Positions 1 through 45,271 of a DNA stretch of 45,271 bases are shown here, in pieces. Below the pieces are notes generated by a model. That model did no database searches. It worked only from the letters and a program-made list of their open reading frames with translations, and was not told the origin of the DNA. The stretch covers positions 1 to 45,271 of the forward strand of contig JAIRYN010000034.1 in the NCBI GenBank assembly GCA_031267575.1, written 5' to 3'. The position numbers and the translations under genes were made by a program. The stretch comes from Synergistaceae bacterium. Its GTDB lineage: Bacteria; Synergistota; Synergistia; Synergistales; Aminobacteriaceae. Position 1 is the stretch's first letter. Every line of letters starts with the position of its first letter.

Positions 1-438
1 AGAAGTTCGGGGTCGTCCACCTGGTCCGTCTTGTTCATGAACACCACCAGAGCGGGAACGTTGACCTGGCGGGCCAGCAACACGTGCTCGCGGGTCTGGG
101 GCATGGGGCCGTCAGCCGCGCTTACCACCAGGATCGCGCCGTCCATCTGAGCCGCGCCCGTGATCATGTTTTTGATGTAGTCCGCGTGGCCGGGGCAGTC
201 GATATGGGCGTAATGACGCTTATCCGTCTGATACTCCACGTGGGCAATGTTGATCGTGATTCCGCGCTCGCGCTCCTCCGGGGCCTTGTCGATCATATCA
301 TAGGCCGTGAAGTCCGCCAGCTTCTGCGTCGCGAGGCATTTCGTAATCGCCGCCGTCAACGTGGTCTTACCGTGATCGATATGCCCGATCGTGCCGATAT
401 TCAAATGCGGCTTGTTGCGATCAAATTTTTCCTTCGCC
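1..438 (-). CDS. tuf: Elongation factor Tu, N-terminal part; the 3' end runs off the window start
   Basis: Reverse translation from ATG (complement of 436-438) gives [34 protein letters not shown]...[26 protein letters not shown]. These are the EF-Tu G1 (GHIDHGKTT) and DCPGH motifs. An AGGAGGG RBS lies 8 nt upstream and there is no stop before the window edge. Confidence 0.95.
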
Positions 439-706
439 ATAGTGTTTTCTCCCTCCTGCCAATATTCTCCCTGAACTACGTCCATCCAATCAGTGATCCG
501 AGTAGACGATCTTCGGTTGCTTCCTCATTTAACATACTCCCACGACTAAAGTCATGGGATTCTAAGATCGACAAAGACAGCCGACTAAAACCGGTCTTAC
601 GTCTTCTCCTTTAAGAGTGGATGCCCCCACTCTGAGAATATTTACATCCACATTGATATCCTGGTCGTGTTCCGCCCCGCATCTCACGTTGATAAGCCAT
701 AAAAGG

Positions 707-35806: not shown

Positions 35807-36505
35807 TCAAAATTTGTTGAGGCGCAGCTCGATCTTTGTGAGGACTTGCTCGATGAGAATGCAACAGCACCAGTAAATTATGGATACCACAATGTATGTT
35901 TCAAAAAATCGAAAGGAACGCGAACTGGTGATCTTGGCTTGAGCCATGATATCGACCACAGAGATACTGAAGACCAGGCTTGTTTCTTTCAGCATGGAAA
36001 TGAAGTTGTTGCCCAACGGTGGAAGGGCGACGACAAAGGTCTGTGGCAGGATGACGCGCCGCAGCGCGGTCCATGTACTCATGTTCACGCTGTGGCACGC
36101 CTCCATCTGCCCCTTATCTACCGACAGTAGCGCACTGCGTATGATCTCGGACATGTACGCCCCGCTGTTGAGAGACAACGCGATCACGGCGAACACTAGC
36201 CTAGGCACCGCGTTCACCGAAATATTCGTCCCGAACCGGGAGTTTATCGCGTTGAGAAAAATCGGCAGGCCGTAGTATACGAGTAGCAGCTGGACGAGTG
36301 CCGGAGTGCCTCGGATGAAAGAAATATACACCTTGCAGAGCTTCGATGCGATTTTTATGTCGAAATAACGGATCAATGCCACTCCGGAGCCGATAACGAC
36401 ACCGATGGCAAACGAGGTGATCGATAAAAAAAGAGTGATAGGCAGGAATTTAATAATTTCCGGCACGGTAGAGAGCATAAACTGAACGTCAAAAGTTTTC
36501 CCCAT
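35807..36505 (-). CDS. Polar amino-acid ABC transporter permease
   Basis: MGKTFDVQFMLSTVPEIIKFLPITLFL... and the EAA-like loop region. Start taken at ATG 36505, which overlaps the substrate-binding-protein gene by 17 nt; the ORF track extends it to 36727. Confidence 0.8.
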   Translation of the reverse strand: MGKTFDVQFMLSTVPEIIKFLPITLFLSITSFAIGVVIGSGVALIRYFDIKIASKLCKVYISFIRGTPALVQLLLVYYGLPIFLNAINSRFGTNISVNAVPRLVFAVIALSLNSGAYMSEIIRSALLSVDKGQMEACHSVNMSTWTALRRVILPQTFVVALPPLGNNFISMLKETSLVFSISVVDIMAQAKITSSRSFRFFETYIVVSIIYWCCCILIEQVLTKIELRLNKF

Positions 36506-37316
36506 GAATCCTGACTTTATCCGTTTTCTCACTGGAGTAATCCGCGCCGAGATATTTTTTGGAGAGTTCGGCAAGCGTCCCATTTTTGAGCAGAGTTTCA
36601 AGCGCGGGGTCGACCAATTTTTTAAGTCGCTCGCCATTAGTATTTTTCGCGAAAAGAACGAACGTGGGCTCTCTTTCTTTCTCCTTCCACGGAACCGAAT
36701 CAATGGGGATATTTTGTTCTTTGGCAAGCAGATTGATAGCGACAGCGCTGCCCAATAGCGCGTCTGCGCGCCCGGTCACGAGTTCCAGCAGCATTTTGGA
36801 AAAGTCGCCGTCGGAATAGGAGATCGTAATGAGATTCCCGTTTTCAGCGTTATACTTTTCAAGCCAGGCCGTGTAAGTACTCCCCAAGCTCGCAGTGACA
36901 GTTTTTCCGTGTAAGTCTTGGGTACTTCTGATATCGGTGCGTCCGCTTTTGAAAGCGATGACATTGGTGGAATACATGTAAGGAAGCTCGGAGAAAAGGT
37001 ATTTTACCTCGCGCTCAGCGTTTTTGTTCAGGTTGGTGGCAATGATGTCATATCTGCCCGACTCAAGCGCGACAAAAATCGCGGTCCACTCTGTGGGTTC
37101 AAAGACGAATTTGACGTCAGGAAGCAGTTCGTCCGCGGCTTTCATCACGGCAACGTTGAATCCATCCGCGTTGCCGTCCTTATCCACATAATTGAAAGGC
37201 GCGTAAGCTCCCTCGGTTCCCACGGTCACCTTTTCGACAGCGCATACCTCCCAGGGCGTCATCAGCAAGCACGTTATCCCCAGCAAGAACAGCACATATT
37301 TATCCGAATTTTTCAT
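36489..37316 (-). CDS. Amino-acid ABC transporter substrate-binding protein
   Basis: Signal peptide, then VTVGTEGAYAPFNYVDKDGNADGFNVAVMKAA, a family-3 periplasmic binding protein signature. Confidence 0.8.
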   Translation of the reverse strand: MKNSDKYVLFLLGITCLLMTPWEVCAVEKVTVGTEGAYAPFNYVDKDGNADGFNVAVMKAADELLPDVKFVFEPTEWTAIFVALESGRYDIIATNLNKNAEREVKYLFSELPYMYSTNVIAFKSGRTDIRSTQDLHGKTVTASLGSTYTAWLEKYNAENGNLITISYSDGDFSKMLLELVTGRADALLGSAVAINLLAKEQNIPIDSVPWKEKEREPTFVLFAKNTNGERLKKLVDPALETLLKNGTLAELSKKYLGADYSSEKTDKVRIHGENF

Positions 37317-37379: not shown

Positions 37380-37892
37380 TTATCTTTTGATCGCAAGAAC
37401 ACGGGGAGCAGCTATCAAAAACCAGACCGCGAACTCCTCCGGCGTTTTTCGCAGACGAGATGACAATTCGCCGAACTCGATCCACTTGGTCTCCATAATC
37501 TCATCCTCGTTCGCGCTCAATGCGCCGGAGTAGTCGGCAGCGAACACGTGATCGTACTCATGTTCATACAGGCAATCGTTGAACTTGTGCTCGTACACGA
37601 AGGAAAACAGCTCGACGGGCTTTATACCACGAACGCCGATCTCCTGCTCCAATCGACGAACCACGGCGAGTTCTGTCGACTCGTCCTCTCTTGGGTGAGA
37701 ACAACAGGCGTTGGCCCACAGGCCGCCAGAGTGGTATTTGCCCATCGCCCTTTGCTGTACCAGCATATATCCGTTATGATGAATAAACACCGAAAAAGCG
37801 CGATGTAGCTTCGGAGTCCTGTGAGCCTCCATTTTCTCCGCCGAGCCGATGGGCCGGTCAAACTCATCGACCAAAATAATTCTCTCCGTCAT
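37380..37892 (-). CDS. idi: Isopentenyl-diphosphate delta-isomerase, type 1 (Nudix)
   Basis: [38 protein letters not shown] closely matches the E. coli Idi core. Start overlaps the cysNC stop. Confidence 0.85.
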
Positions 37893-39817
37893 GCCCCTTC
37901 ACCCTCTAGAAAATGCACAATTCTCTCCGCCTCTTCTTCCGCGTTGCCGCTCCCGTTCACGACGAGTTCGGGATGTTCCGGGCGTTCGTATGGCGCGTTG
38001 ATGCCGGTAAAATTGGGAATCTCCCCGATTCTCGCTTTTTTGTAAAGACCTTTCGGGTCGCGCTGTTCGCAGGCTTCCAGCGACGTATCGACGAACACCT
38101 CGATAAATTCTCCGGGAGCGAACAGGGAGCGCGCGTATTCCCTGTCTTTTTGGAAAGGTGAGATAAACGCCACCAACACGATAAGGCCAGCGTCAATCAT
38201 CAATTTCGCCACTTCGGCCACGCGGCGGATGTTCTCCACCCTGTCTTCCTCGGTGAAGCCCAGGTCTTTGTTGAGCCCGTGCCTCACATTGTCGCCGTCC
38301 AGCACACAAGAACGCAATCCCATCGAAAAGAGCTTTTTGTCAACCAGATTCGCCACCGTCGATTTGCCGGAACCTGAAAGCCCCGTGAACCAAAGCACGC
38401 GAGGGGTTTGCCCCATCAGACGTGCTCTAGCCTCTTTCGTGATCTCGAACAAGTGCCATGTCACGTTTGCGGCCCTCCGCAAGGAATATCGAATCATTCC
38501 CGCGCCAACCGTGTCATTCGTGACGCGATCAATAAGGATGAAACCACCTAATTCCCTGTTTTCCGTGTAAGGTTCGTACACAATCGGTGTTCCGGTTTTG
38601 ATGTTGCCTATTCCGATTTCGTTCATAGCGAGGGTTTTGGCCGGTTCTATCGACAATGTTTCGACGCTTGTCTTGCCGCGTATTTCCGTCACGGTGGCCA
38701 ACACCGTCCGGTTCGATATCTTCAAAAGGTATTCGCGTCCGGGGAACAACCTGTTTTCGCTCATCCAGACTACGACCGCGCGGAAATGGTCCGTAACATC
38801 TGAAACAACCCGCGCGTCCGATAAAAAGTTGCCGCGGCTTATGTCCGTTTCTTTCGTAAGAGATATCTCCGCAGCTTCACCCTTTTTAGCCGCGTTTCGT
38901 TCTTTGCCGCTCACGATAAGCGACTTAACCGTATTTTTTTGACCCGACGGCAGAACGACAACATCGTCGCCCGTGCGTATCGTGCCCTCCGCGATTATGC
39001 CGCAGTAACCCCTAAAGCTCGCGCCGGGCCGGTTGACCCACTGAACCGCCATCCTAAATGGTTTTACCTTTTCTTTTAGCTTTTCTTTTAGCTTTTCTTT
39101 TTCGCCGCCCGGTTCGAGGGTTTCCAAATACTCCGCCAGCGTCGGACCACTGTACCACGGCGTATCGTCCTTACGCGCGAAAACGTTGTTCCCTTTTAGG
39201 GCAGAAAGCGGAATACAGGTCACGAAGAGTTCTCCCGTGTCGTGTTCCAGTTTTTTAATTTTTACCATTAAGCTCTCGTAGTCCTTCGATATTTCGTCGA
39301 AAATATCCCTCGACCATCCGACCAAATCCATCTTGTTCACCGCGAGCGCGATGTGGCGAATACCTAACAATACCGCGATGTACGTGTGCCTCACGGTCTG
39401 CGGCAAGATGCCGTTGCGCGCGTCAAGTAGAACAACGGCGGCCTCGCTGTTTGAAGCGCCGGTCACCATGTTTCTCGTGTACTGTTCGTGTCCCGGCACG
39501 TCTGCCACGATGAACTTCCTGTTTTTCGTTTCGAAATACCTATACGCCACGTCTATGTCTATGGTTATCCCCTGCTCACGTTCCGCCAAAAAGCCCTCCA
39601 TAAGAAGCGAGAAATCCAGTTCGCCGTCCATGTTTTTCTTCCAGCTTTCGCGGTGGAGGGAAGAGAGTTGATCATCAAAGAGACAGCCCGAATCATAAAG
39701 CAGCCTTCCTATCAGCGTGCTCTTTCCATCATCGACGCTACCGCAGGTTAAAAATTTCAGTTGCGTTTTATTTTCATGTGTTTTCTTTTTAGATTCGGAA
39801 AATGGCATTTTTAAAAA
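37889..39817 (-). CDS. cysNC: Bifunctional sulfate adenylyltransferase subunit 1 / adenylylsulfate kinase
   Basis: GTPase domain [16 protein letters not shown]...DVPGHEQY...NKMD, with a C-terminal APS kinase ([14 protein letters not shown]...). Start at MPFSESKKK (39817); the ORF track extends to 40054 through the cysD remnant. Contains an in-frame [10 protein letters not shown] repeat. Confidence 0.85.
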
Positions 39818-40560
39818 TACCCCTCCTGTTTTTTCTTCTCCATGGAACCGTCCTGGTCGTTGTCGATTAACCGGCCATGACGCTCCGAAAAACGCAATTG
39901 CCGTAACTCGTTGAAGACGTCCCGCGCGATAGCGGCGTTCGATTCGACAGCTCCTGTGAGCGGGTAGCAGCCCAGAGTCCTGAAATACACCATCCGAAAC
40001 TCCGGCCGTTCGTCCGGAACAAGTTTCATCCTGTCGTCGTCGATCATAATCCACGTGCCCTTGCGTTTCACTACCGGGCGCACGCTGGCGAAATAGAGCG
40101 GAACTATCGGAATATCTTCATCGACGATGTACTCCCACACATCATACTCCGTCCAGTTGGAGAGCGGGAACACACGCATGGTCTCCCCTGGCCCGAGGCG
40201 AGTAAGGGATTTATGCCTTCTTTGACGGCCTTTTCGTTCGTATAAGTGATCAGGCGCAACCCCAGTGTCTTTTCACTGTGGCGTCCCTGAAAGCGATCAT
40301 CTCTTTGAATTTCCACTCTTTGAATTTCCACGTCGTGTCTATATGCATAAGAGGCAACGGCGGCTTCGGTGGGTAAAAAGTCTTTATGGTGAGGCGAAGC
40401 ATGACCGACGAACCCTTATCTATGGATTGACTTACCGTTCTGCCCAACTTATGCAAACCTGAATAAATCCGATCAAATATGATCAGGAGCAAGTTTACTG
40501 TTGGCTTCCTGCTTCATCGAGGCCAGTTTCACCATCATCTCGCGACGACATAAAAACCGC
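39811..40560 (-). pseudogene. cysD: Sulfate adenylyltransferase subunit 2 (cysD), degraded by frameshifts and an internal deletion
   Basis: Three collinear fragments in different frames match CysD: [35 protein letters not shown].., then [17 protein letters not shown], then [18 protein letters not shown]...[14 protein letters not shown]...[12 protein letters not shown]. About 85 central residues, including the GGxRRDEE region, are missing. A 15-bp in-frame tandem duplication lies at 40300-40329. Confidence 0.8.
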
Positions 40561-40660: not shown

Positions 40661-41389
40661 TTAATGAAAAGCTAAATCTCGCAGATCCGAGTACAATTTT
40701 TGGATATCGTCGGGCAGAACGTCCTCGCCAGAGTCAGGAAAGCGCGCCGACGCGGGTTCGTTCCAAAAAGAGGCAATATTGCGCCGCAGTGTTTCCAGAT
40801 CGATAGGTCGTCCGAGCCAGTTCAGTAGCTTGGCGAACGAATCAAGGGGTTCAAGGCAGAAGCGGTTGAAGTCGAAAATAAACGCGTCCATCCCCTCGGA
40901 GTTTTCGATAAAGCGTCGACTGTATTTGCCCCAGATACATAGGCCCTCGTCAAAATCCGTTCCGTAGCGCTTGCTCATTGAAGCCGCGACCTCGGCGGGA
41001 TGCCGTAAACAGAAAACCACCCGGCGAAGTTCCAGCCACACGTCCCGCCACGCCGCCAAAGTTAGGCAGAAGAGCGGGTCTTTGCAAAGTTCTCCGTCGA
41101 ACTCTTTCAAAAAGATCTGAAAATATTTTTGCCTTTTGGTGGCGAGCGCCATGATCTCGTCGCGCGGAGGTGGTGTAAAGATTCCCCAAAAAGGGCTGAT
41201 CTCGATTAGAAGCCGTTCGTTGACCGCGAAAAGCAAGTCGTGTTCAAAATGCCCCCTGGGGTTCATGGGCGTCGAGTTGCGCAGAACGCGGATATTGCGC
41301 CCCAGATCGAAACCGCAGAGCTCCAACAGGCCCGTGACGCAGCTTGTGCCGCTTCTCATCGGACCGGTAACGATGGTTGTTTCCCTCAT
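40661..41389 (-). CDS. Sulfotransferase family protein
   Basis: VTGPMRSGTS is the 5'-PSB (PAPS-binding) loop of sulfotransferases, on a roughly 240-aa scaffold. The start ATG overlaps the TGA of the upstream gene (ATGA). Confidence 0.7.
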   Translation of the reverse strand: MRETTIVTGPMRSGTSCVTGLLELCGFDLGRNIRVLRNSTPMNPRGHFEHDLLFAVNERLLIEISPFWGIFTPPPRDEIMALATKRQKYFQIFLKEFDGELCKDPLFCLTLAAWRDVWLELRRVVFCLRHPAEVAASMSKRYGTDFDEGLCIWGKYSRRFIENSEGMDAFIFDFNRFCLEPLDSFAKLLNWLGRPIDLETLRRNIASFWNEPASARFPDSGEDVLPDDIQKLYSDLRDLAFH

Positions 41390-43680
41390 GATTTTGCCTT
41401 TCCGTCCATAAGCGCAAGTGTCGCCCACGCGGAGCTCACGCCGCCCAGGTCCCGTGTGAAAAACAAAGTTCGCTCCCCGTCCTCCTCGAACCAGTAAGCG
41501 AGAATGGGCTCGCCTGCCCAGCCACCCGGCCCCTTGATTCTTCGCAGCCAGTCCCGACCCGGGTCAAGAGAGGAGGAGGAAGGCGACGCGACGGTCAGCG
41601 CCAGCAACGCGGCGGAAGTTTCGATGACGGAACCGCCCCACGCTCCCTCGTTTCCCTGGCCGCTTTGCAAGCGATAGACGGCCCGCGCCTCGACCTCCTT
41701 CAGAAGCTGGGAATCGTAGGGGGAACCTTCGAGGGAGGTAAAGAAACGCAGCGCGTACCAAATGGGGATTGTTTGTGAGGGAAACCACTTTCCGGGCCAT
41801 CCACCGCTCACTTGCTGGTTTCGCAGCAGATAATCGCGGCAGAGAGTAATTTCCTCCGCATAACGTTCAGGATCTATCCGCGTCAGCAACCATGCACAGA
41901 AGGCCGTTGCTGGGCAGTCCACGCCCCGCCAATAAGGCGCGCGCCCAGGCGCGTCGGCGGGAAGCGTGCCGAATCCCCCTTGTTCACGGTCAAAAAACAC
42001 GTCGACGAGCCTACGGCAACTTTCCCGCAAACACGTTCTATGCCTGCCGGTCGACAGCAAACCCTCCATAACGAGGGCACTATCCAAAGATGTAACGCCA
42101 TAATCCCTCTGATAGCCCCATAAACCGTCGACGGCCTCTTCCAGCAGATAACGCTCGGTTTCCCACGATTCTCCTTCGAGGAAAGACGTCTCGCCCTTTC
42201 CGGCCTTTTCTGCTTGAAGCAGAAGGCCATAATAAGCCACTGTACCATCGCGGAAAGTTTCGGTGAGTTGAGGGCCATTGCCGCCCATGCGGAGAACCGT
42301 GGTCTCGGCTAGAGGCATACGGCCAAAATCCACCGAAATCGGGCCGAAATCGTCTTTCAGGCAAAAAGCCGCCGCCCTGCGACCCGACGCTATCGCGGGC
42401 CACATGCCGTAAGGCAGCGCCGCGCCGTCCCACTCTGTATAATCCCCGGCCAAGACGACTCCTGGCATGGGACAAAGCCATGTCGCGGAAAAACCGCGAT
42501 AAGTCGACTCCTCGATAATGGGGCCGACTTCCGCCCAGCGCCGCGATTCCAGCAGAGAACAGTTCTTGACGGTAAATTCACCGACACTTGTCGCTTGCAG
42601 TTCCTCAATCATCATCCGCGTCAAATCCGCGTCGCTCATGCCTTCAGATGCCGCCATGCTTTCGCCCACAATGTAGCCTGTGACGACGACTTCGTTTTCG
42701 TTAGAAACGCCAGAAACGCCTGGAAGCTGATGGAAAATAAAGGTGTTGAAATGGCCCTGAGTGGAAACCAGATAGGACAATGCGCGCCGATTTTCGACAC
42801 GACAGTGGAGAACGACGGCGATTCCTCCACCGTAGCGGACGCGGCCGAGAAAATCGGAGGAGACGTTTTTGAATTCACTACATAATTTTTTAGCCTCAGT
42901 CGCTGGGACTGCTAGGATAATCTTTTGCGCGACGGCTTCTTCTTTCGCGCCGTTTCCGTTACGCCACAGAACTTTAACGGACTTGGAGCTTTGCCCTCCC
43001 ACCGAAAGACCTCGCTCAAGAGCCTCGGATTCTTGAGAATCTTTTTTGGGGACTAACTCGTACACGCGGCAAGCCGTTCGGATTTCTGCCCCGCCGCTCG
43101 CGGCTGTTAGGTTTGCGGCCATAGCCTGAATCATCGCTCCGTTTCCTCGCTGGAAATAATCTGCCCTGTGACGGAGGAGACAATCCCTGCGGCGGGTCGG
43201 AACAGCCTCGGTGGGTGTTCCGGGGTGGATGACGCGAAAGAAAGCCTTCATCGCCGCCCCCAGGTCTTCACCGATCATCGCCTCCTGTGGATTCGGCGAG
43301 GCGAGGAAAGACGATAGGCAGATCTGTTGCCGCGGCGCCGAGTTCAGCGAGCGAACGCAATCGACCACCGAGTCGCCGGTATGGAGCCGTCCCCGGTGAA
43401 ACAAACCCACGGGATTATCGTTCTCGTAGTGAGAACCCGCGTCCACGGGAAAGTCAAACCATTTGGGATTGAAAGCGAAAATCGACCCCGTTTCGTAAAC
43501 GATTCTATCCCGTTTCCCCGTGCGCACTTTACCGCCCAAACGGCCATCCGCTTCCAAGAGCAAAACTTTTTTTCTGGGTTTTCCCGTTTTCACGTTCAAA
43601 GAAACTTCGCAGGCGGCGGACAAACCCGCCAATCCGCCTCCCACGATGATCACGTCGTACTGCTCGTATTGTCGCGTCAT
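41386..43680 (-). CDS. Fusion protein: flavin-containing amine-oxidase/desaturase-like N-terminal domain plus squalene-cyclase/prenyltransferase-like repeat C-terminal domain
   Basis: N-terminus YDVIIVGGGLAGLSAA...LLEADGRLGGKV...GVVLAGDYT (amine oxidase FAD fold). C-terminus carries QW-type repeats QQVSGGWPGKW, QSGQGNEGAWGGS and KGPGGWAGEP, typical of terpene cyclase/prenyltransferase alpha-barrels. GGAGGTGA RBS before the ATG at 43680. Confidence 0.65.
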   Translation of the reverse strand: MTRQYEQYDVIIVGGGLAGLSAACEVSLNVKTGKPRKKVLLLEADGRLGGKVRTGKRDRIVYETGSIFAFNPKWFDFPVDAGSHYENDNPVGLFHRGRLHTGDSVVDCVRSLNSAPRQQICLSSFLASPNPQEAMIGEDLGAAMKAFFRVIHPGTPTEAVPTRRRDCLLRHRADYFQRGNGAMIQAMAANLTAASGGAEIRTACRVYELVPKKDSQESEALERGLSVGGQSSKSVKVLWRNGNGAKEEAVAQKIILAVPATEAKKLCSEFKNVSSDFLGRVRYGGGIAVVLHCRVENRRALSYLVSTQGHFNTFIFHQLPGVSGVSNENEVVVTGYIVGESMAASEGMSDADLTRMMIEELQATSVGEFTVKNCSLLESRRWAEVGPIIEESTYRGFSATWLCPMPGVVLAGDYTEWDGAALPYGMWPAIASGRRAAAFCLKDDFGPISVDFGRMPLAETTVLRMGGNGPQLTETFRDGTVAYYGLLLQAEKAGKGETSFLEGESWETERYLLEEAVDGLWGYQRDYGVTSLDSALVMEGLLSTGRHRTCLRESCRRLVDVFFDREQGGFGTLPADAPGRAPYWRGVDCPATAFCAWLLTRIDPERYAEEITLCRDYLLRNQQVSGGWPGKWFPSQTIPIWYALRFFTSLEGSPYDSQLLKEVEARAVYRLQSGQGNEGAWGGSVIETSAALLALTVASPSSSSLDPGRDWLRRIKGPGGWAGEPILAYWFEEDGERTLFFTRDLGGVSSAWATLALMDGKAKS

Positions 43681-43696: not shown

Positions 43697-44902
43697 TCAT
43701 TGAATATTCCACGCTTGCCTCGCTTGCTTATCGGCGTCGGGTGACACACCCAGAATCGCGTTCCGCGGATTGAACAAGCTCAAAGCTAGACCAGGGCGGC
43801 TAACGGCGAGGTAAGCCTTTGCTTGCGTCAAAGTCCCCCGCGACAACGTGAGCTTCAGGTGGTGAATTTTCCTATAGGTATTGAGATAAACGACGCCGCC
43901 GGTGATGCGCTTGCGCAGAGGTGACGCAGTGATCCCGACGTAATCCTTCACGCCCTGCGCCTTTTCAGGCAAGCAGAGTCCCGCGCGCGTCAGTGCCTCA
44001 AGCAGCGGATGCCATTGCTTAGGGTCATCATCGAGCCATTCCTCGTAACACTCTACGCCAAAGACGTCGTCAACGCCTTCTTCCATCAGGTTGAAGCCGA
44101 AATTCAGATCACGGCAGAGCGGGAAAACGACTTCGAAGATCTTCCTCAACGATTCGATTTCGGCGGCGCCGGCCTCGGCCGTTCTAGTAGCGGACCGTAG
44201 TCTTGCGAGCCAAGTCAGAATTTTCCCTATGTCCATTCCTGCCTTCGACACGACTTTATCCACGCACAGCCTCATTCCAACGTCGTCCGCCCGGTCCAGC
44301 ATGAAACCAATCTGAAAAATCCTCGCTCCCTCAGGCAGGTCGTCGAAAAATTTTCGTAGCGCGCGCGCCTGGGAAGCGGGACGCTCGAACAGGGACATGA
44401 GCTCCCCGATCAGATCAAAGGTTCTCTCGTTGGACGTTTTCGGTTCGGGGCCGAAGAAAATATTGGGTTGCCGCAAAACCCTTTCCGCGTCCGCTCCAGC
44501 CAAATCCATTTCCAGCCAAAGGTTGTGGATATCGCGGTTCCATGGGTGGTCGAGATTGAGCCAATTCCGGGCGAGAACTCGAAGATTTTTCCAGACAGGA
44601 TAGACCTCGCACAGTTCGTCGATGGCAGAAGAGATTTCACCAGCAAGAAGAGCAGGACCGCAAGCCTCCTTCTTGATTTCAAACAAGATGTCGGAAAGGG
44701 GCTCCGGTTCGCCGAGACGGCACTCGAAACCCCAGAAGCTGGACAACTGTATCGGAAGGCGCGCGGCGACGCAGCGCATTTGCGCCCGGCATTCCTCTCC
44801 GAACAGACTTTCCGGCAGGGACGGCTCAATGTCATCCAAGACGTCGGTCAACGAAGGGACCGACGTCATAGCGGGCGCAACACGATTCGCGGGGCAATTC
44901 AT
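43697..44902 (-). CDS. Hypothetical protein of 401 aa with no recognisable family signature
   Basis: Long ORF in the operon between the precursor gene and the fusion enzyme. Acidic clusters FFDDLPEG and VDDVFGVECYEE are the only motif-like features. Confidence 0.55.
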   Translation of the reverse strand: MNCPANRVAPAMTSVPSLTDVLDDIEPSLPESLFGEECRAQMRCVAARLPIQLSSFWGFECRLGEPEPLSDILFEIKKEACGPALLAGEISSAIDELCEVYPVWKNLRVLARNWLNLDHPWNRDIHNLWLEMDLAGADAERVLRQPNIFFGPEPKTSNERTFDLIGELMSLFERPASQARALRKFFDDLPEGARIFQIGFMLDRADDVGMRLCVDKVVSKAGMDIGKILTWLARLRSATRTAEAGAAEIESLRKIFEVVFPLCRDLNFGFNLMEEGVDDVFGVECYEEWLDDDPKQWHPLLEALTRAGLCLPEKAQGVKDYVGITASPLRKRITGGVVYLNTYRKIHHLKLTLSRGTLTQAKAYLAVSRPGLALSLFNPRNAILGVSPDADKQARQAWNIQ

Positions 44903-44993: not shown

Positions 44994-45271
44994 TTACCAA
45001 CGAGAGAGAGCCTTACCAATGGATATAATCACTGCTCCCCCGACGGCGGCACCAACGACAAGGGCAGCGGTCGATGTAACGATGCCACCCGCCACTTTTT
45101 CTAGTTCTTCTTCACTTAATTCGTCTTTCTTGTCCACTCCTACTTCCTTTGTCAGAGCTTCCGCGTCTTCTTTGGAGAACTCCAGGCCCAACGTTTTCGC
45201 ATAGGTAATCTGACCGTCTAGATCTCCTATGCCGATTTCTTTCGCCTTTTTGCGGACTTCCTCATTCTCTA
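44994..45271 (-). CDS. Nif11-like leader precursor peptide with a double-glycine site (N-terminus beyond window end)
   Basis: The ORF is open to the window edge. Leader: ...EEVRKKAKEIGIGDLDGQITYAKTLGLEFSKEDAEALTKEVGVDKKDELSEEELEKVAGG. Core: IVTSTAALVVGAAVGGAVIISIGKALSRW, then stop. The leader end LSEEELEKVAGG resembles the LSDDELEGVAGG of prochlorosin-type Nif11 leaders. Confidence 0.65.
   Translation of the reverse strand, partial: ENEEVRKKAKEIGIGDLDGQITYAKTLGLEFSKEDAEALTKEVGVDKKDELSEEELEKVAGGIVTSTAALVVGAAVGGAVIISIGKALSRW

What the first reader, a model, noticed from the sequence alone, without database searches (positions are those of the whole stretch)
44994..45271. Nif11-like double-glycine precursor with an atypical Cys-free, Gly/Ala-rich core ending in Trp
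The leader has the hallmarks of Nif11/prochlorosin-type leaders: an acidic helix and ELSEEELEKVAGG immediately before the core. The 29-aa core IVTSTAALVVGAAVGGAVIISIGKALSRW has no Cys, which excludes a classical lanthipeptide. It has five Ser/Thr, an internal GG and a C-terminal Arg-Trp. Nif11 leaders usually pair with LanM enzymes or a few other known tailoring classes. Here the neighbours are a flavin oxidase/cyclase fusion and a sulfotransferase instead.
Basis: partly seen in the sequence, partly recalled or inferred. Interest (0 to 1): 0.8.

Follow-up and report, generated by a model that had tools for sequence, protein, structure and literature searches.

The report
Precursor of terpene-capped, sulfated ribosomal peptide
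This is the truncated gene for a small precursor peptide whose conserved final tryptophan is most likely given a lipid (terpene) cap and a sulfate by the neighbouring enzymes, which would make it an uncharacterised variant of a recently discovered kind of bacterial peptide natural product, found here mostly in anaerobes.

Summary
A minus-strand ORF (45269..44994) runs off the contig end. It encodes a Nif11-type leader ending ELSEEELEKVAGG and a 29-aa Cys-free Gly/Ala/Val-rich core ending in Trp. About 14 N-terminal residues are missing.

It belongs to a family of at least 63 precursors of about 95-130 aa. 29 of 30 members match the Nif11 leader model, and 55 of 62 cores end in Trp.

It encodes an unannotated protein with an ABBA aromatic prenyltransferase fold that is closest to tryptophan/indole prenyltransferases. 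After it come a flavin oxidase fused to a single-domain class II terpene cyclase, a sulfotransferase, sulfate-activation (PAPS) genes and IPP isomerase.

This gene set recurs with such precursors in Synergistota, Desulfobacterota, Chloroflexota, Spirochaetota and Moduliflexus. In all those loci a PoyD-type radical-SAM epimerase is also present, so here it probably lies beyond the contig end.

Best reading: this is a RiPP precursor whose C-terminal Trp is prenylated. The prenyl group is then cyclised and redox-tailored, and the product is sulfated.

The closest known systems are the Trp-geranylgeranylated, terpene-cyclised RiPPs made by NctPC/ChrPC. The flavin-cyclase fusion and the sulfation appear to be undescribed. 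All the chemistry is inferred.

The parts
44994..45269 (-). Precursor peptide gene, truncated at the 5' end by the contig end. The Nif11-type leader is 45084-45269. The 29-aa core IVTSTAALVVGAAVGGAVIISIGKALSRW is 44997-45083. The stop codon is 44994-44996.
   Evidence: Translation. HMM matches to PF10439, TIGR03949 and TIGR03798. 63 homologues. Family alignment A1 with a near-invariant C-terminal Trp.
43697..44869 (-). ABBA-fold aromatic prenyltransferase of 390 aa (the ORF could start at 44902). It has no Pfam or NCBIfam model. It is the proposed Trp prenyltransferase.
41386..43680 (-). Fusion protein of 764 aa. The N-terminal flavin amine-oxidase/PPO-superfamily domain is about 42343-43680. 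The C-terminal single-domain class II terpene cyclase is 41389-42342. Its start overlaps the prenyltransferase stop.
   Evidence: Pfam Amino_oxidase, NAD_binding_8 and SQHop_cyclase_C. Full-length profile against PDB: L-amino-acid oxidases 1e-23, PPO 2e-15. Cyclase-domain AF2 model: pLDDT 88.4. Foldseek top hits are single-domain SHC-like 8pak/8paj, drimenyl-PP synthase and MstE. Cyclase profile against PDB: SHC 6e-23, MstE 1.7e-4. The motif TSLDSA sits at the DxDD position.
40661..41389 (-). Sulfotransferase-family protein of 242 aa. Its ATG overlaps the stop of the fusion gene (ATGA).
   Evidence: It is 48-76% identical to orthologues in L002, L003 and L004. Those match PF13469 Sulfotransfer_3, and the L003 copy scores 27.4 bits against a cut-off of 27. 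It is always next to the fusion gene. PAPS genes are adjacent. By my reading, it has TGPMRSGTS (5'-PSB-like) and RHPAEVAAS (3'-PB-like) motifs.
39811..40492 (-). Degraded cysD (sulfate adenylyltransferase small subunit). Two fragments lie in different frames. There is a 15-nt tandem duplication, and roughly 230 nt are missing.
   Evidence: The fragments match CysD model positions 26-74 and 173-294. Sequence.
37889..39808 (-). CysN/CysC bifunctional sulfate adenylyltransferase and APS kinase, which supplies PAPS.
   Evidence: NF004035 at 869.7 bits (cut-off 715). Pfam APS_kinase and GTP_EFTU. The start at 39808 was read.
37380..37892 (-). Type 1 IPP isomerase, which supplies the prenyl donor. 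It overlaps the cysNC stop and is the last gene of the minus-strand run.
   Evidence: NF002995 at 154.1 bits (cut-off 127). An IDI also lies near the cluster in L013.

Best explanation
The ORF is the 5'-truncated structural gene of a RiPP precursor. [quoted passage not shown] The hydrophobic 29-aa core carries two family hallmarks: an xxTxT motif at its start and a single Trp as its last residue.

Proposed pathway (steps 1-4 are inferred; step 5 rests on genes seen in related loci):
1. The adjacent leader-dependent ABBA prenyltransferase alkylates the indole of the C-terminal Trp with an isoprenyl diphosphate. The IPP isomerase supports donor supply.
2. The class II terpene cyclase domain of the next protein cyclises the prenyl chain. 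Its fused flavin domain carries out a coupled redox or isomerisation step. Because most hosts are anaerobes, this step is probably oxygen-independent.
3. The small sulfotransferase, fed by the clustered CysD/CysNC PAPS pathway, sulfates the product. The site is unknown: it could be a terpenoid hydroxyl, a core Thr/Ser or the indole.
4. In related loci a PoyD-type radical-SAM epimerase also converts some L-residues to D-residues. In this genome that gene probably lies just beyond the contig end.
5. A C39-peptidase ABC exporter removes the leader after GG.

The product would be a membrane-active, proteusin-like lipopeptide with an anionic terpenoid cap.
For: Shown directly:
- The sequence and its motifs.
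- Leader and family membership.
- 55 of 62 homologue cores end in Trp, and 53 contain exactly one Trp.
- The terminal Trp is kept in Desulfobulbus/Desulfobulbaceae, Anaerolineales, Clostridiales, Leptospirales, Desulfohalobiaceae and Moduliflexus precursors.
- 59 of 64 leaders have L(X)4L before the AGG.

Enzyme identities:
- Prenyltransferase fold.
- Terpene cyclase.
- Flavin domain.
- Sulfotransferase.
- PAPS genes and IDI.
- PoyD-type epimerase, TIGR04517, 343-388 bits against a cut-off of 325.

Functional linkage:
- Precursor, prenyltransferase, fusion and sulfotransferase occur together in the window, L002, L003, L004, L007, L008, L009, L011, L013 and L015.
- A search seeded only with the prenyltransferase recovered Nif11 precursors in 9 of 9 loci that have at least 33% prenyltransferase identity and enough flanking sequence.
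- The stop and start codons of the genes overlap in the window.
- Fusion proteins link the families: prenyltransferase + cyclase (P0258, cyclase HMM E 9e-33), sulfotransferase + prenyltransferase (P0257) and LanM + prenyltransferase (P0285).
- In L013 the FAD and cyclase domains are separate genes.

Precedent:
- NctPC is an ABBA prenyltransferase plus an MstE-like cyclase. It geranylgeranylates Trp and then cyclises the chain (review PMC13290415).
- MppC is a leader-dependent Trp geranyltransferase acting on a Nif11-leader peptide (PMC12715784).
- PalQ prenylates a C-terminal Trp (PMC10853753).
Against: - No chemistry was observed. The acceptor residue, donor length, cyclisation, flavin reaction and sulfation site are all inferred.
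- Fold similarity of the prenyltransferase to indole prenyltransferases (11-15% identity) does not fix the acceptor.
- The cyclase keeps only one Asp (TSLDSA) where canonical enzymes have DxDD. The alignment is ambiguous as to whether it matches the catalytic middle Asp.
- The flavin domain belongs to the oxidase/dehydrogenase superfamily, not to the epoxidases.
- The window's own sulfotransferase has no significant Pfam or PDB hit. Its assignment rests on orthologues.
- cysD is degraded in this contig.
- The epimerase and exporter are not in the window.
- Some variant loci (L012, L014, L016) lack the flavin-cyclase fusion.
Confidence: 0.68

Rival explanations
1. This is an ordinary, unmodified class IIb (two-peptide, Blp/lactobin A/cerein 7B-type) bacteriocin, as NCBI names it. 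The neighbouring prenyltransferase, cyclase and sulfotransferase genes would then belong to an unrelated sulfated-terpenoid pathway.
For: PF10439 and TIGR03949 score above their cut-offs. 27 of 30 family members match TIGR03949. The cores are Gly/Ala-rich and helix-like. Several paralogues occur per locus.
Against: - The leader is about 76 aa and of Nif11 type, not a short class II leader.
- The precursor genes lie next to the same enzyme set across at least five phyla, which is not expected for an unrelated pathway.
- A RiPP-specific PoyD epimerase accompanies them.
- The prenyltransferase family is also found fused to LanM.
- The TIGR03949 match covers mainly the GG junction and low-complexity G/A sequence.
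Confidence: 0.05
2. The peptide is a scaffold. The C-terminal Trp is prenylated, cyclised, oxidised and sulfated while attached. It is then cleaved off to release a small sulfated indole-terpenoid, by logic similar to pearlin or ammosamide-type pathways.
For: The only strictly conserved core residue is the terminal Trp. The flavin domain's best solved relatives are L-amino-acid oxidases. These are weak and indirect.
Against: - No protease or peptidase other than the C39 exporter is conserved in the loci.
- The cores keep a conserved length, hydrophobic composition and xxTxT motif, and they diversify as paralogues.
- An epimerase acting on the backbone would serve no purpose for a scaffold.
- By my reading of the sequences, the LAAO carboxylate-binding Arg is not evidently conserved.
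Confidence: 0.1
3. It is a modified RiPP, but the prenyltransferase targets another nucleophile, such as the conserved Thr/Ser hydroxyls or the new N-terminus. The terminal Trp would then serve as a recognition element or a membrane-interface anchor.
For: ABBA peptide prenyltransferases are known to O-prenylate Ser/Thr/Tyr and to N-prenylate (review PMC13290415). The xxTxT motif is conserved.
Against: - Trp is more strictly conserved than the Thr residues. L012 and L014 cores lack the second Thr.
- By my reading of the papers cited here, all characterised RiPP prenyltransferases that pair with terpene cyclases, or that act on NHLP/Nif11 leaders, modify Trp.
Confidence: 0.12

Closest known systems
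RiPPs with polycyclic isoprenoid moieties: NctPC/ChrPC systems, product name 'steromaze' (Hubrich et al., Chem 2024, as summarised in PMC13290415 and PMC13647313)
   Same: A ribosomal precursor, an ABBA-fold peptide prenyltransferase with low similarity to cyanobactin prenyltransferases, and an MstE-like single-domain class II terpene cyclase acting on the prenyl group, with Trp as acceptor. The window's prenyltransferase and cyclase families also occur fused as prenyltransferase + cyclase in one protein (P0258).
   Different: Here the prenyltransferase stands alone, and the cyclase is fused to a flavin amine-oxidase-type domain instead. A sulfotransferase with its own PAPS, sulfate-import and IDI supply is part of the cluster. 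The Trp is strictly C-terminal. The hosts are mostly anaerobes rather than cyanobacteria. The primary paper could not be read here, so overlap with its bioinformatic survey cannot be excluded.
Proteusins: NHLP/Nif11-leader peptides matured by PoyD-type radical-SAM epimerases (polytheonamide-type)
   Same: A long Nif11/NHLP-type leader with a GG site, a hydrophobic Gly/Ala/Val/Thr-rich core, and a TIGR04517 epimerase next to the precursors in every related locus.
   Different: The epimerase is not in the window because the contig ends. Prenylation, cyclisation and sulfation are not classical proteusin tailoring steps.
MppC/MppE (leader-dependent lanthipeptide Trp C5-geranyltransferase, PMC12715784) and PalQ/PalX (C-terminal Trp prenylation on an NHLP precursor, PMC10853753)
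   Same: A Nif11/NHLP leader with L(X)4L, Trp-specific prenylation and, for PalQ, a preference for a C-terminal Trp.
   Different: MppE is a lanthipeptide with Cys and a LanM. PalQ is a trans-IDS/ComQ-like enzyme, not an ABBA one. Neither system has a cyclase, a flavin enzyme or a sulfotransferase.
Class IIb bacteriocins, lactobin A/cerein 7B family (TIGR03949, PF10439), which is the current NCBI name for this protein
   Same: A double-glycine junction followed by a Gly/Ala-rich hydrophobic peptide. The HMM scores are above the cut-offs.
   Different: The leader is about 76 aa and of Nif11 type. Conserved tailoring enzymes are present and the terminal Trp is conserved. Class II bacteriocins are by definition unmodified.
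Sulfated RiPPs: RaxX/RaxST with RaxPQ, methanobactin MbnS, sulfonated lanthipeptides (PMC11143521)
   Same: A PAPS-dependent sulfotransferase in a RiPP cluster. As with raxPQ, dedicated CysD/CysNC-type PAPS genes are clustered.
   Different: The core has no Tyr. The sulfotransferase family is different and very divergent. The sulfation site is unknown and may be on the terpenoid.

Membership tests
Nif11-like leader peptide RiPP precursors (TIGR03798 / PF07862) | The N-terminal domain matches the Nif11 leader model at or above the curated cut-off. | tested here: inconclusive
   The window fragment scores 27.4 bits against a cut-off of 32.3. It matches model positions 16-68 only, because about 14 residues are cut off. 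29 of 30 family members match at E of 1e-3 or better, best 1.2e-14.
Nif11-like leader peptide RiPP precursors (TIGR03798 / PF07862) | A double-glycine cleavage motif ends the leader, preceded by an acidic L(X)4L segment. | tested here: met
   ELSEEELEKVAGG. 59 of 64 homologues have L(X)4L before the AGG.
Nif11-like leader peptide RiPP precursors (TIGR03798 / PF07862) | A C39-peptidase-domain ABC exporter lies in the locus. | tested here: inconclusive
   None is in the window, since the cluster is cut by the contig end. One is present in L002 and L003 (Pfam Peptidase_C39), and strong homologues of the L002 exporter are in L009, L013, L016 and L018.
Class IIb bacteriocin, lactobin A/cerein 7B (TIGR03949; Pfam Bacteriocin_IIc) | HMM score above the curated cut-off. 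| tested here: met
   TIGR03949 27.8 bits against 21.5. PF10439 28.0 bits against 27.1.
Class IIb bacteriocin, lactobin A/cerein 7B (TIGR03949; Pfam Bacteriocin_IIc) | A short double-glycine leader of about 15-30 aa and an unmodified mature peptide, with no dedicated tailoring enzymes. | tested here: not met
   At least 62 aa of leader are visible, and about 76 aa in full-length relatives. Conserved prenyltransferase, cyclase, sulfotransferase and epimerase neighbours are present.
Proteusins (NHLP/Nif11 leader + PoyD-type rSAM epimerase) | A PoyD-family radical-SAM epimerase is encoded next to the precursor. | tested here: inconclusive
   It is absent from the window, where the contig ends inside the precursor gene. 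It is present in all related loci L001-L016. Three were tested against TIGR04517: 343, 351 and 388 bits against a cut-off of 325. In L004, one of the closest relatives, it lies upstream of the precursors.
Proteusins (NHLP/Nif11 leader + PoyD-type rSAM epimerase) | D-amino acids in the mature peptide. | not testable with these tools
   This needs chemical analysis.
Terpene-cyclised prenyl-Trp RiPPs (NctPC/ChrPC type) | A peptide prenyltransferase (ABBA fold in NctPC). | tested here: met
Terpene-cyclised prenyl-Trp RiPPs (NctPC/ChrPC type) | An MstE-like single-domain class II terpene cyclase. | tested here: met
   Foldseek: 8pak TMq 0.73, MstE E 8e-8. Profile search: SHC 6e-23, MstE 1.7e-4. QW-type repeats are present. 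The catalytic DxDD is reduced to TSLDSA.
Terpene-cyclised prenyl-Trp RiPPs (NctPC/ChrPC type) | Prenyltransferase and cyclase fused in one bifunctional protein. | tested here: not met
   In the window they are separate genes, and the cyclase is fused to a flavin domain instead. A prenyltransferase + cyclase fusion of the same families exists elsewhere (P0258).
Terpene-cyclised prenyl-Trp RiPPs (NctPC/ChrPC type) | Trp is the acceptor and a C10-C20 prenyl donor is used. | not testable with these tools
   The only support is conservation of the terminal Trp.
Lanthipeptides (prochlorosin-type Nif11 precursors) | Cys plus Ser/Thr in the core, and a LanM/LanB/LanC enzyme in the locus. | tested here: not met
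   The core has no Cys. No Lan enzyme is in the window or in related loci.
Tyr-sulfated RiPPs (RaxX/RaxST type) | A Tyr acceptor in the core. | tested here: not met
   The window core has no Tyr. Only 5 of 62 family cores contain Tyr.

The most novel reading that the evidence does not exclude
These clusters would define a new RiPP subclass from anaerobes: D-amino-acid-containing, channel-forming proteusin-like peptides whose C-terminal Trp carries a cyclised terpenoid that is then sulfated, giving an anionic, sterol-sulfate-like membrane anchor.

In this reading the flavin domain fused to a class II cyclase with a degenerate DxDD motif performs oxygen-independent chemistry. That could be flavin-assisted protonation or isomerisation, as in CrtY, CrtISO or IDI-2, or a dehydrogenation. 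Such chemistry has no precedent in peptide maturation.
Probability: 0.3. Interest if true: 0.85.

Novelty: new variant of a known kind. Interest (0 to 1): 0.74.

Why it matters
Terpene-peptide hybrids made on the ribosome were first reported in 2024, and sulfation of RiPPs is rare. A conserved cluster that combines Trp prenylation, a flavin-coupled terpene cyclase, dedicated PAPS supply and sulfation, and backbone epimerisation would extend both themes into strict anaerobes from digester, sediment and gut-type habitats.

It would also supply new leader-guided enzymes for peptide lipidation and sulfation.

The work shows that a very large prenyltransferase family has no Pfam or NCBIfam model and is currently annotated as 'hypothetical'. 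The family has at least 4,500 clusters at 50% identity.

It also suggests that NCBI's label 'Blp family class II bacteriocin' for these precursors is misleading.

Tried and rejected
- Exact-sequence look-ups of three window proteins, meant to extend the contig, found nothing on record.
- Sequence searches of the prenyltransferase and the sulfotransferase against PDB gave no significant hits. The sulfotransferase's best hit was Teg14 at E 0.48. A predicted structure was needed for the prenyltransferase, and orthologue Pfam hits for the sulfotransferase.
- The search for related loci with the 55-sequence alignment failed for lack of a conserved stretch. It worked with a narrower alignment.
- The AFDB50 fold library was unavailable.
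- The primary papers were not held: Hubrich 2024 and Moosmann 2020 on MstE. Their content is cited only through reviews.
- Literature searches found no description of this cluster. The searches combined Nif11 or proteusin with sulfotransferase, and prenyltransferase, cyclase and sulfotransferase together.
- The promoter and terminator scan around the precursor gave nothing above shuffled expectation.
- No Nif11-type precursor was found near the most distant prenyltransferase homologues in L016 and L017, and L018 gave only weak partial matches.
- Lanthipeptide, rejected: no Cys and no Lan enzymes.
- O2-dependent epoxidation followed by OSC-like cyclisation and sulfation of the resulting hydroxyl, set aside as the primary model. 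It is chemically neat. However, the flavin domain is of the oxidase/PPO type, and the hosts carrying the fusion are anaerobes.
- LAAO-like recognition of the C-terminal carboxylate, set aside. By eye, the carboxylate-binding Arg of LAAOs aligns with Phe in this family.
Full report
**1. The observation**

The feature lies on the minus strand. Translating 45269..44997 gives 91 codons: ENEEVRKKAKEIGIGDLDGQITYAKTLGLEFSKEDAEALTKEVGVDKKDELSEEELEKVAGG followed by IVTSTAALVVGAAVGGAVIISIGKALSRW. A TAA stop follows at 44996-44994, and the other two frames are closed. The reading frame is open to the window end.

The identical protein is on record as 'MAG: Blp family class II bacteriocin, partial [Synergistaceae bacterium]' on a contig of 45,271 nt. 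The window is therefore a whole MAG contig, and the gene is cut by the contig end.

The core has 29 aa, no Cys and five Ser/Thr. It has an internal GG and ends in Arg-Trp.

**2. It is a real gene of a defined family**

The fragment matches three models:
- Pfam Bacteriocin_IIc at 28.0 bits (cut-off 27.1).
- TIGR03949, class IIb lactobin A/cerein 7B, at 27.8 bits (cut-off 21.5).
- TIGR03798, the Nif11 leader model, at 27.4 bits (cut-off 32.3). The match covers model positions 16-68 only, as expected for a truncated copy.

A search of about 5.8 billion proteins returned 63 relatives of about 95-130 aa, most of them 99-113 aa. Most are named 'predicted ribosomally synthesized peptide with nif11-like leader', and there are often several per contig.

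In the alignment the window copy lacks about 14 N-terminal residues (consensus MSVENLKKYGKLCx). The leader is highly conserved up to ELSEE(D/E)LKKVAGG. 29 of 30 members match TIGR03798 (best E 1.2e-14), and 27 of 30 match TIGR03949.

The cores have a median length of 30 aa. Their composition is A 23%, G 14%, V 13% and T 10%. 55 of 62 end in Trp (22 in PGW), and 53 contain exactly one Trp. An xxTxT motif follows the cleavage site.

**3. The neighbourhood in the window**

All the genes below lie on the minus strand, and several starts and stops overlap:
- Precursor (45269-44994).
- A 390-aa protein with no family hit (44869-43697).
- A 764-aa flavin/cyclase fusion (43680-41386).
- A 242-aa protein (41389-40661).
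- A degraded cysD (40492-39811).
- cysNC (39808-37889).
- Type 1 IPP isomerase (37892-37380).

Further along the same strand come a cystine-type ABC transporter binding protein and permease (35807-37316). The other large ORFs examined, between 18457 and 35724, are housekeeping genes.

**4.

The 390-aa protein has 84 homologues. None has a Pfam domain, and every source name given is 'hypothetical protein' or equivalent.

An AlphaFold2 model built from a 55-sequence alignment is confident, with pLDDT 92.3 and pTM 0.91. It shows the repeated helix/strand-pair pattern of the ABBA barrel.

Fold comparisons agree:
- Foldseek against PDB gives 47 hits at E of 1e-3 or better, and all 50 matches listed are ABBA aromatic prenyltransferases. 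They are led by bacterial Trp/indole enzymes: 5-DMATS, MpnD, IptA, DMATS1, 6-DMATS and PriB.

The family-invariant residues E49, E120, R200, E273, K339, K351 and Y353 lie on predicted barrel strands, and D122 lies just after one. That is where ABBA enzymes bind the diphosphate and the acceptor.

An exhaustive profile search finds 4,509 clusters at 50% identity with E of 1e-3 or better. This is a very large family with no Pfam or NCBIfam model.

**5. The fusion protein**

The N-terminal part of about 445 aa is a flavin amine-oxidase/PPO-superfamily domain (Pfam Amino_oxidase 2.4e-17, NAD_binding_8). A profile search against PDB gives L-amino-acid oxidases at 1e-23 to 1e-20, protoporphyrinogen oxidase at 2e-15 and MAO at about 1e-12.

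The C-terminal 318 aa model well, with pLDDT 88.4 and pTM 0.89. They form a single alpha/alpha barrel. The best structural matches are:
- Single-domain squalene-hopene-cyclase-like enzymes 8pak/8paj (TMq 0.73).
- Drimenyl-diphosphate synthase.
- MstE (E 8e-8, TMq 0.67).

A sequence profile of this domain hits SHC at 6e-23, 8pak at 2e-17 and MstE at 1.7e-4, through clear QW-type repeats.

At the position of the DxDD general-acid motif (SDVDDT in SsDMS) the family has an invariant T-S-L-D-S-A with a single Asp. HMMER aligns that Asp with either the second or the third Asp of DxDD. Catalytic competence is therefore plausible but not established.

**6. The sulfotransferase and its supply**

The window's 242-aa protein has no significant Pfam or PDB hit. 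It is, however, 48-76% identical to the orthologues in L002, L003 and L004. All three of those match PF13469 Sulfotransfer_3, and the L003 copy scores above the gathering cut-off.

By my reading it carries P-loop-like TGPMRSGTS and RHPAEVAAS motifs, which resemble the 5'-PSB and 3'-PB PAPS-binding motifs. cysD, cysNC, or both flank the cluster in the window, L002, L004 and L007, and an APS-kinase-like gene lies in L012. L004 also has a sulfate ABC importer.

**7. Conservation**

Look-ups seeded with precursors gave four loci:
- L002: two precursors, a radical-SAM gene, prenyltransferase, fusion, sulfotransferase, CysNC/CysD and a C39-ABC exporter.
- L003 (a 10-Mb genome): precursor, radical-SAM gene, prenyltransferase, glycosyltransferase, fusion, sulfotransferase, HlyD and C39-ABC exporter.
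- L004: radical-SAM gene, four precursors, prenyltransferase, fusion, sulfotransferase, sulfate importer, CysD and CysNC.
- L001: three precursors, then the radical-SAM gene.

An independent scan of GTDB species genomes, seeded only with the prenyltransferase, returned 14 loci. They come from Synergistaceae, Desulfobulbus/Desulfobulbaceae, Anaerolineales, Clostridiales, Leptospirales, Desulfohalobiaceae, Ca. Moduliflexus (UASB14), Catenovulum and Hormoscilla.

HMMs built here gave these results:
- Precursor, prenyltransferase, fusion and sulfotransferase occur together in the window, L002, L003, L004, L007, L008, L009, L011, L013 and L015.
- Every locus with at least 33% prenyltransferase identity and enough flank (9 of 9) has Nif11 precursors.
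- All the intact precursors end in Trp, for example KAW, KSW, RVW, GGW and KRW.
- In L013 the flavin and cyclase parts are separate genes, with the sequence TAG TGA between them and then a new start.

The variant loci L012, L014 and L016 lack the fusion. They instead have radical-SAM enzymes (B12-binding in L012 and L014) and long proteins with C-terminal Sulfotransfer_3/4 domains. Prenyltransferase plus sulfotransferase is therefore the recurrent pairing.

Fusion proteins support the functional coupling:
- Prenyltransferase + class II cyclase (P0258; my cyclase HMM E 9e-33, motif TSIDSA).
- Sulfotransferase + prenyltransferase (P0257).
- Prenyltransferase + 2OG oxygenase, and prenyltransferase + methyltransferase.
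- FAD_binding_4 + prenyltransferase.
- LanM + prenyltransferase.

**8. The epimerase**

The roughly 500-aa radical-SAM protein next to the precursors is present in all related loci, L001 to L016. The three copies tested (L003, L007, L008) match TIGR04517, 'radical SAM family RiPP maturation amino acid epimerase' (PoyD type), at 343-388 bits against a cut-off of 325.

In L004, one of the closest relatives of the window cluster, this gene lies upstream of the precursors. The window's copy is therefore expected just beyond position 45271. This places the family among the proteusin-like RiPPs.

**9. Mechanism**

Shown here:
- The precursor's anatomy.
- The identity of the enzymes at fold or family level.
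- Their conserved linkage.

Inferred:
- The ABBA prenyltransferase alkylates the invariant C-terminal Trp in a leader-dependent manner.
- The cyclase domain cyclises the prenyl chain.
- The flavin domain performs an associated redox or isomerisation step.
- The sulfotransferase adds sulfate from locally made PAPS.
- The epimerase introduces D-residues.
- A C39-ABC exporter cleaves after GG.

The hosts that carry the flavin-cyclase fusion are strict anaerobes (established knowledge for Synergistaceae, Desulfobulbaceae and Anaerolineales). I therefore consider O2-dependent epoxidation unlikely. The flavin chemistry and the sulfation site remain open.

**10. Comparison with what is known**

The closest described systems are the RiPPs with polycyclic isoprenoid moieties (Hubrich et al., Chem 2024). 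The primary paper is not held. As summarised in PMC13290415, NctPC is an ABBA prenyltransferase domain fused to an MstE-like cyclase domain. It geranylgeranylates Trp and then cyclises the chain. ChrPC uses a trans-IDS-like prenyltransferase domain instead.

Related precedents are:
- MppC, a leader-dependent Trp geranyltransferase acting on a Nif11-leader lanthipeptide with an L(X)4L motif (PMC12715784).
- PalQ, which prenylates a C-terminal Trp of an NHLP precursor (PMC10853753).

Sulfation of RiPPs is described as rare (PMC11143521). No paper pairing Nif11 or proteusin precursors with a sulfotransferase together with a prenyltransferase or terpene cyclase was found.

The system works like the NctPC type, but it fails the architectural criterion of a fused prenyltransferase-cyclase. 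It also adds a flavin domain, sulfation and PAPS supply. I rate it a new variant of a known kind. The caveat is that I could not read the primary 2024 paper and its genome-mining survey.

**11. Verdict**

The NCBI name, class II bacteriocin, is probably misleading. Interest is fairly high. The cluster is conserved and cross-phylum, it is uncharacterised, it has chemically unusual tailoring, and it is directly testable by heterologous expression.

Noticed in passing
window 39811-40492 (minus strand): cysD is degraded. Two fragments in different frames match CysD model positions 26-74 and 173-294. There is a 15-nt tandem duplication (TGGAAATTCAAAGAG x2, near 40300-40330), and roughly 230 nt of the gene are missing. 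This is either a pseudogene or an assembly artefact.
   Followed up: partly
window 43697-44869; proteins P0065-P0307: The ABBA prenyltransferase family has no Pfam or NCBIfam model and is annotated 'hypothetical'. Yet it has 4,509 clusters at 50% identity with E of 1e-3 or better, and 2,274 at 1e-30.
   Followed up: yes
P0183, P0191, P0202, P0220, P0236, P0243, P0257, P0258, P0265, P0285, P0296: The prenyltransferase domain occurs fused to several other domains: 2OG-Fe(II) oxygenase (Leptolyngbya, WP_190650324.1), a methyltransferase, a sulfotransferase, an FAD_binding_4 oxidase, a class II cyclase, a LanM-like DUF4135 protein (Stellaceae, HWI28177.1) and a second prenyltransferase domain (tandem).
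   Followed up: partly
L012 10977-15668; L014 11053-16312; L016 11137-14550: These variant clusters lack the flavin-cyclase fusion. They carry additional radical-SAM enzymes (with B12-binding domains in L012 and L014) and 624-706-aa proteins with a C-terminal sulfotransferase domain and an unassigned N-terminal domain. L016 is from a cultured strain, Catenovulum sediminis D2.
   Followed up: partly
L013 11059-13209 (minus strand): In a Leptospirales MAG the flavin domain (407 aa) and the terpene cyclase domain (308 aa) are separate adjacent genes. The sequence TAG TGA separates them, and a new start follows.
   Followed up: yes
L015 2943-6742: Ca. Moduliflexus (UASB14) carries seven or eight tandem precursor paralogues, all ending in (K/R)(R/G)W, plus two copies of the PoyD-type epimerase. 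Its cyclase-containing protein is very divergent.
   Followed up: no
L003 13108-14328: In the 10-Mb genome locus a family-2 glycosyltransferase is inserted between the prenyltransferase and the flavin-cyclase fusion. The conserved Thr/Ser residues may be glycosylated there.
   Followed up: no
window 35807-37316 (minus strand): A cystine-type ABC transporter binding protein and permease lie directly downstream of the IPP isomerase on the same strand. L004 has a sulfate ABC importer at the equivalent place. This may be sulfur supply for the cluster, or it may be coincidental.
   Followed up: no
window 3-524 (minus strand): A partial ORF at the other contig end resembles the GTPase part of CysN/EF-Tu (phmmer E 1.7e-16 against the window's CysNC).
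   Followed up: no
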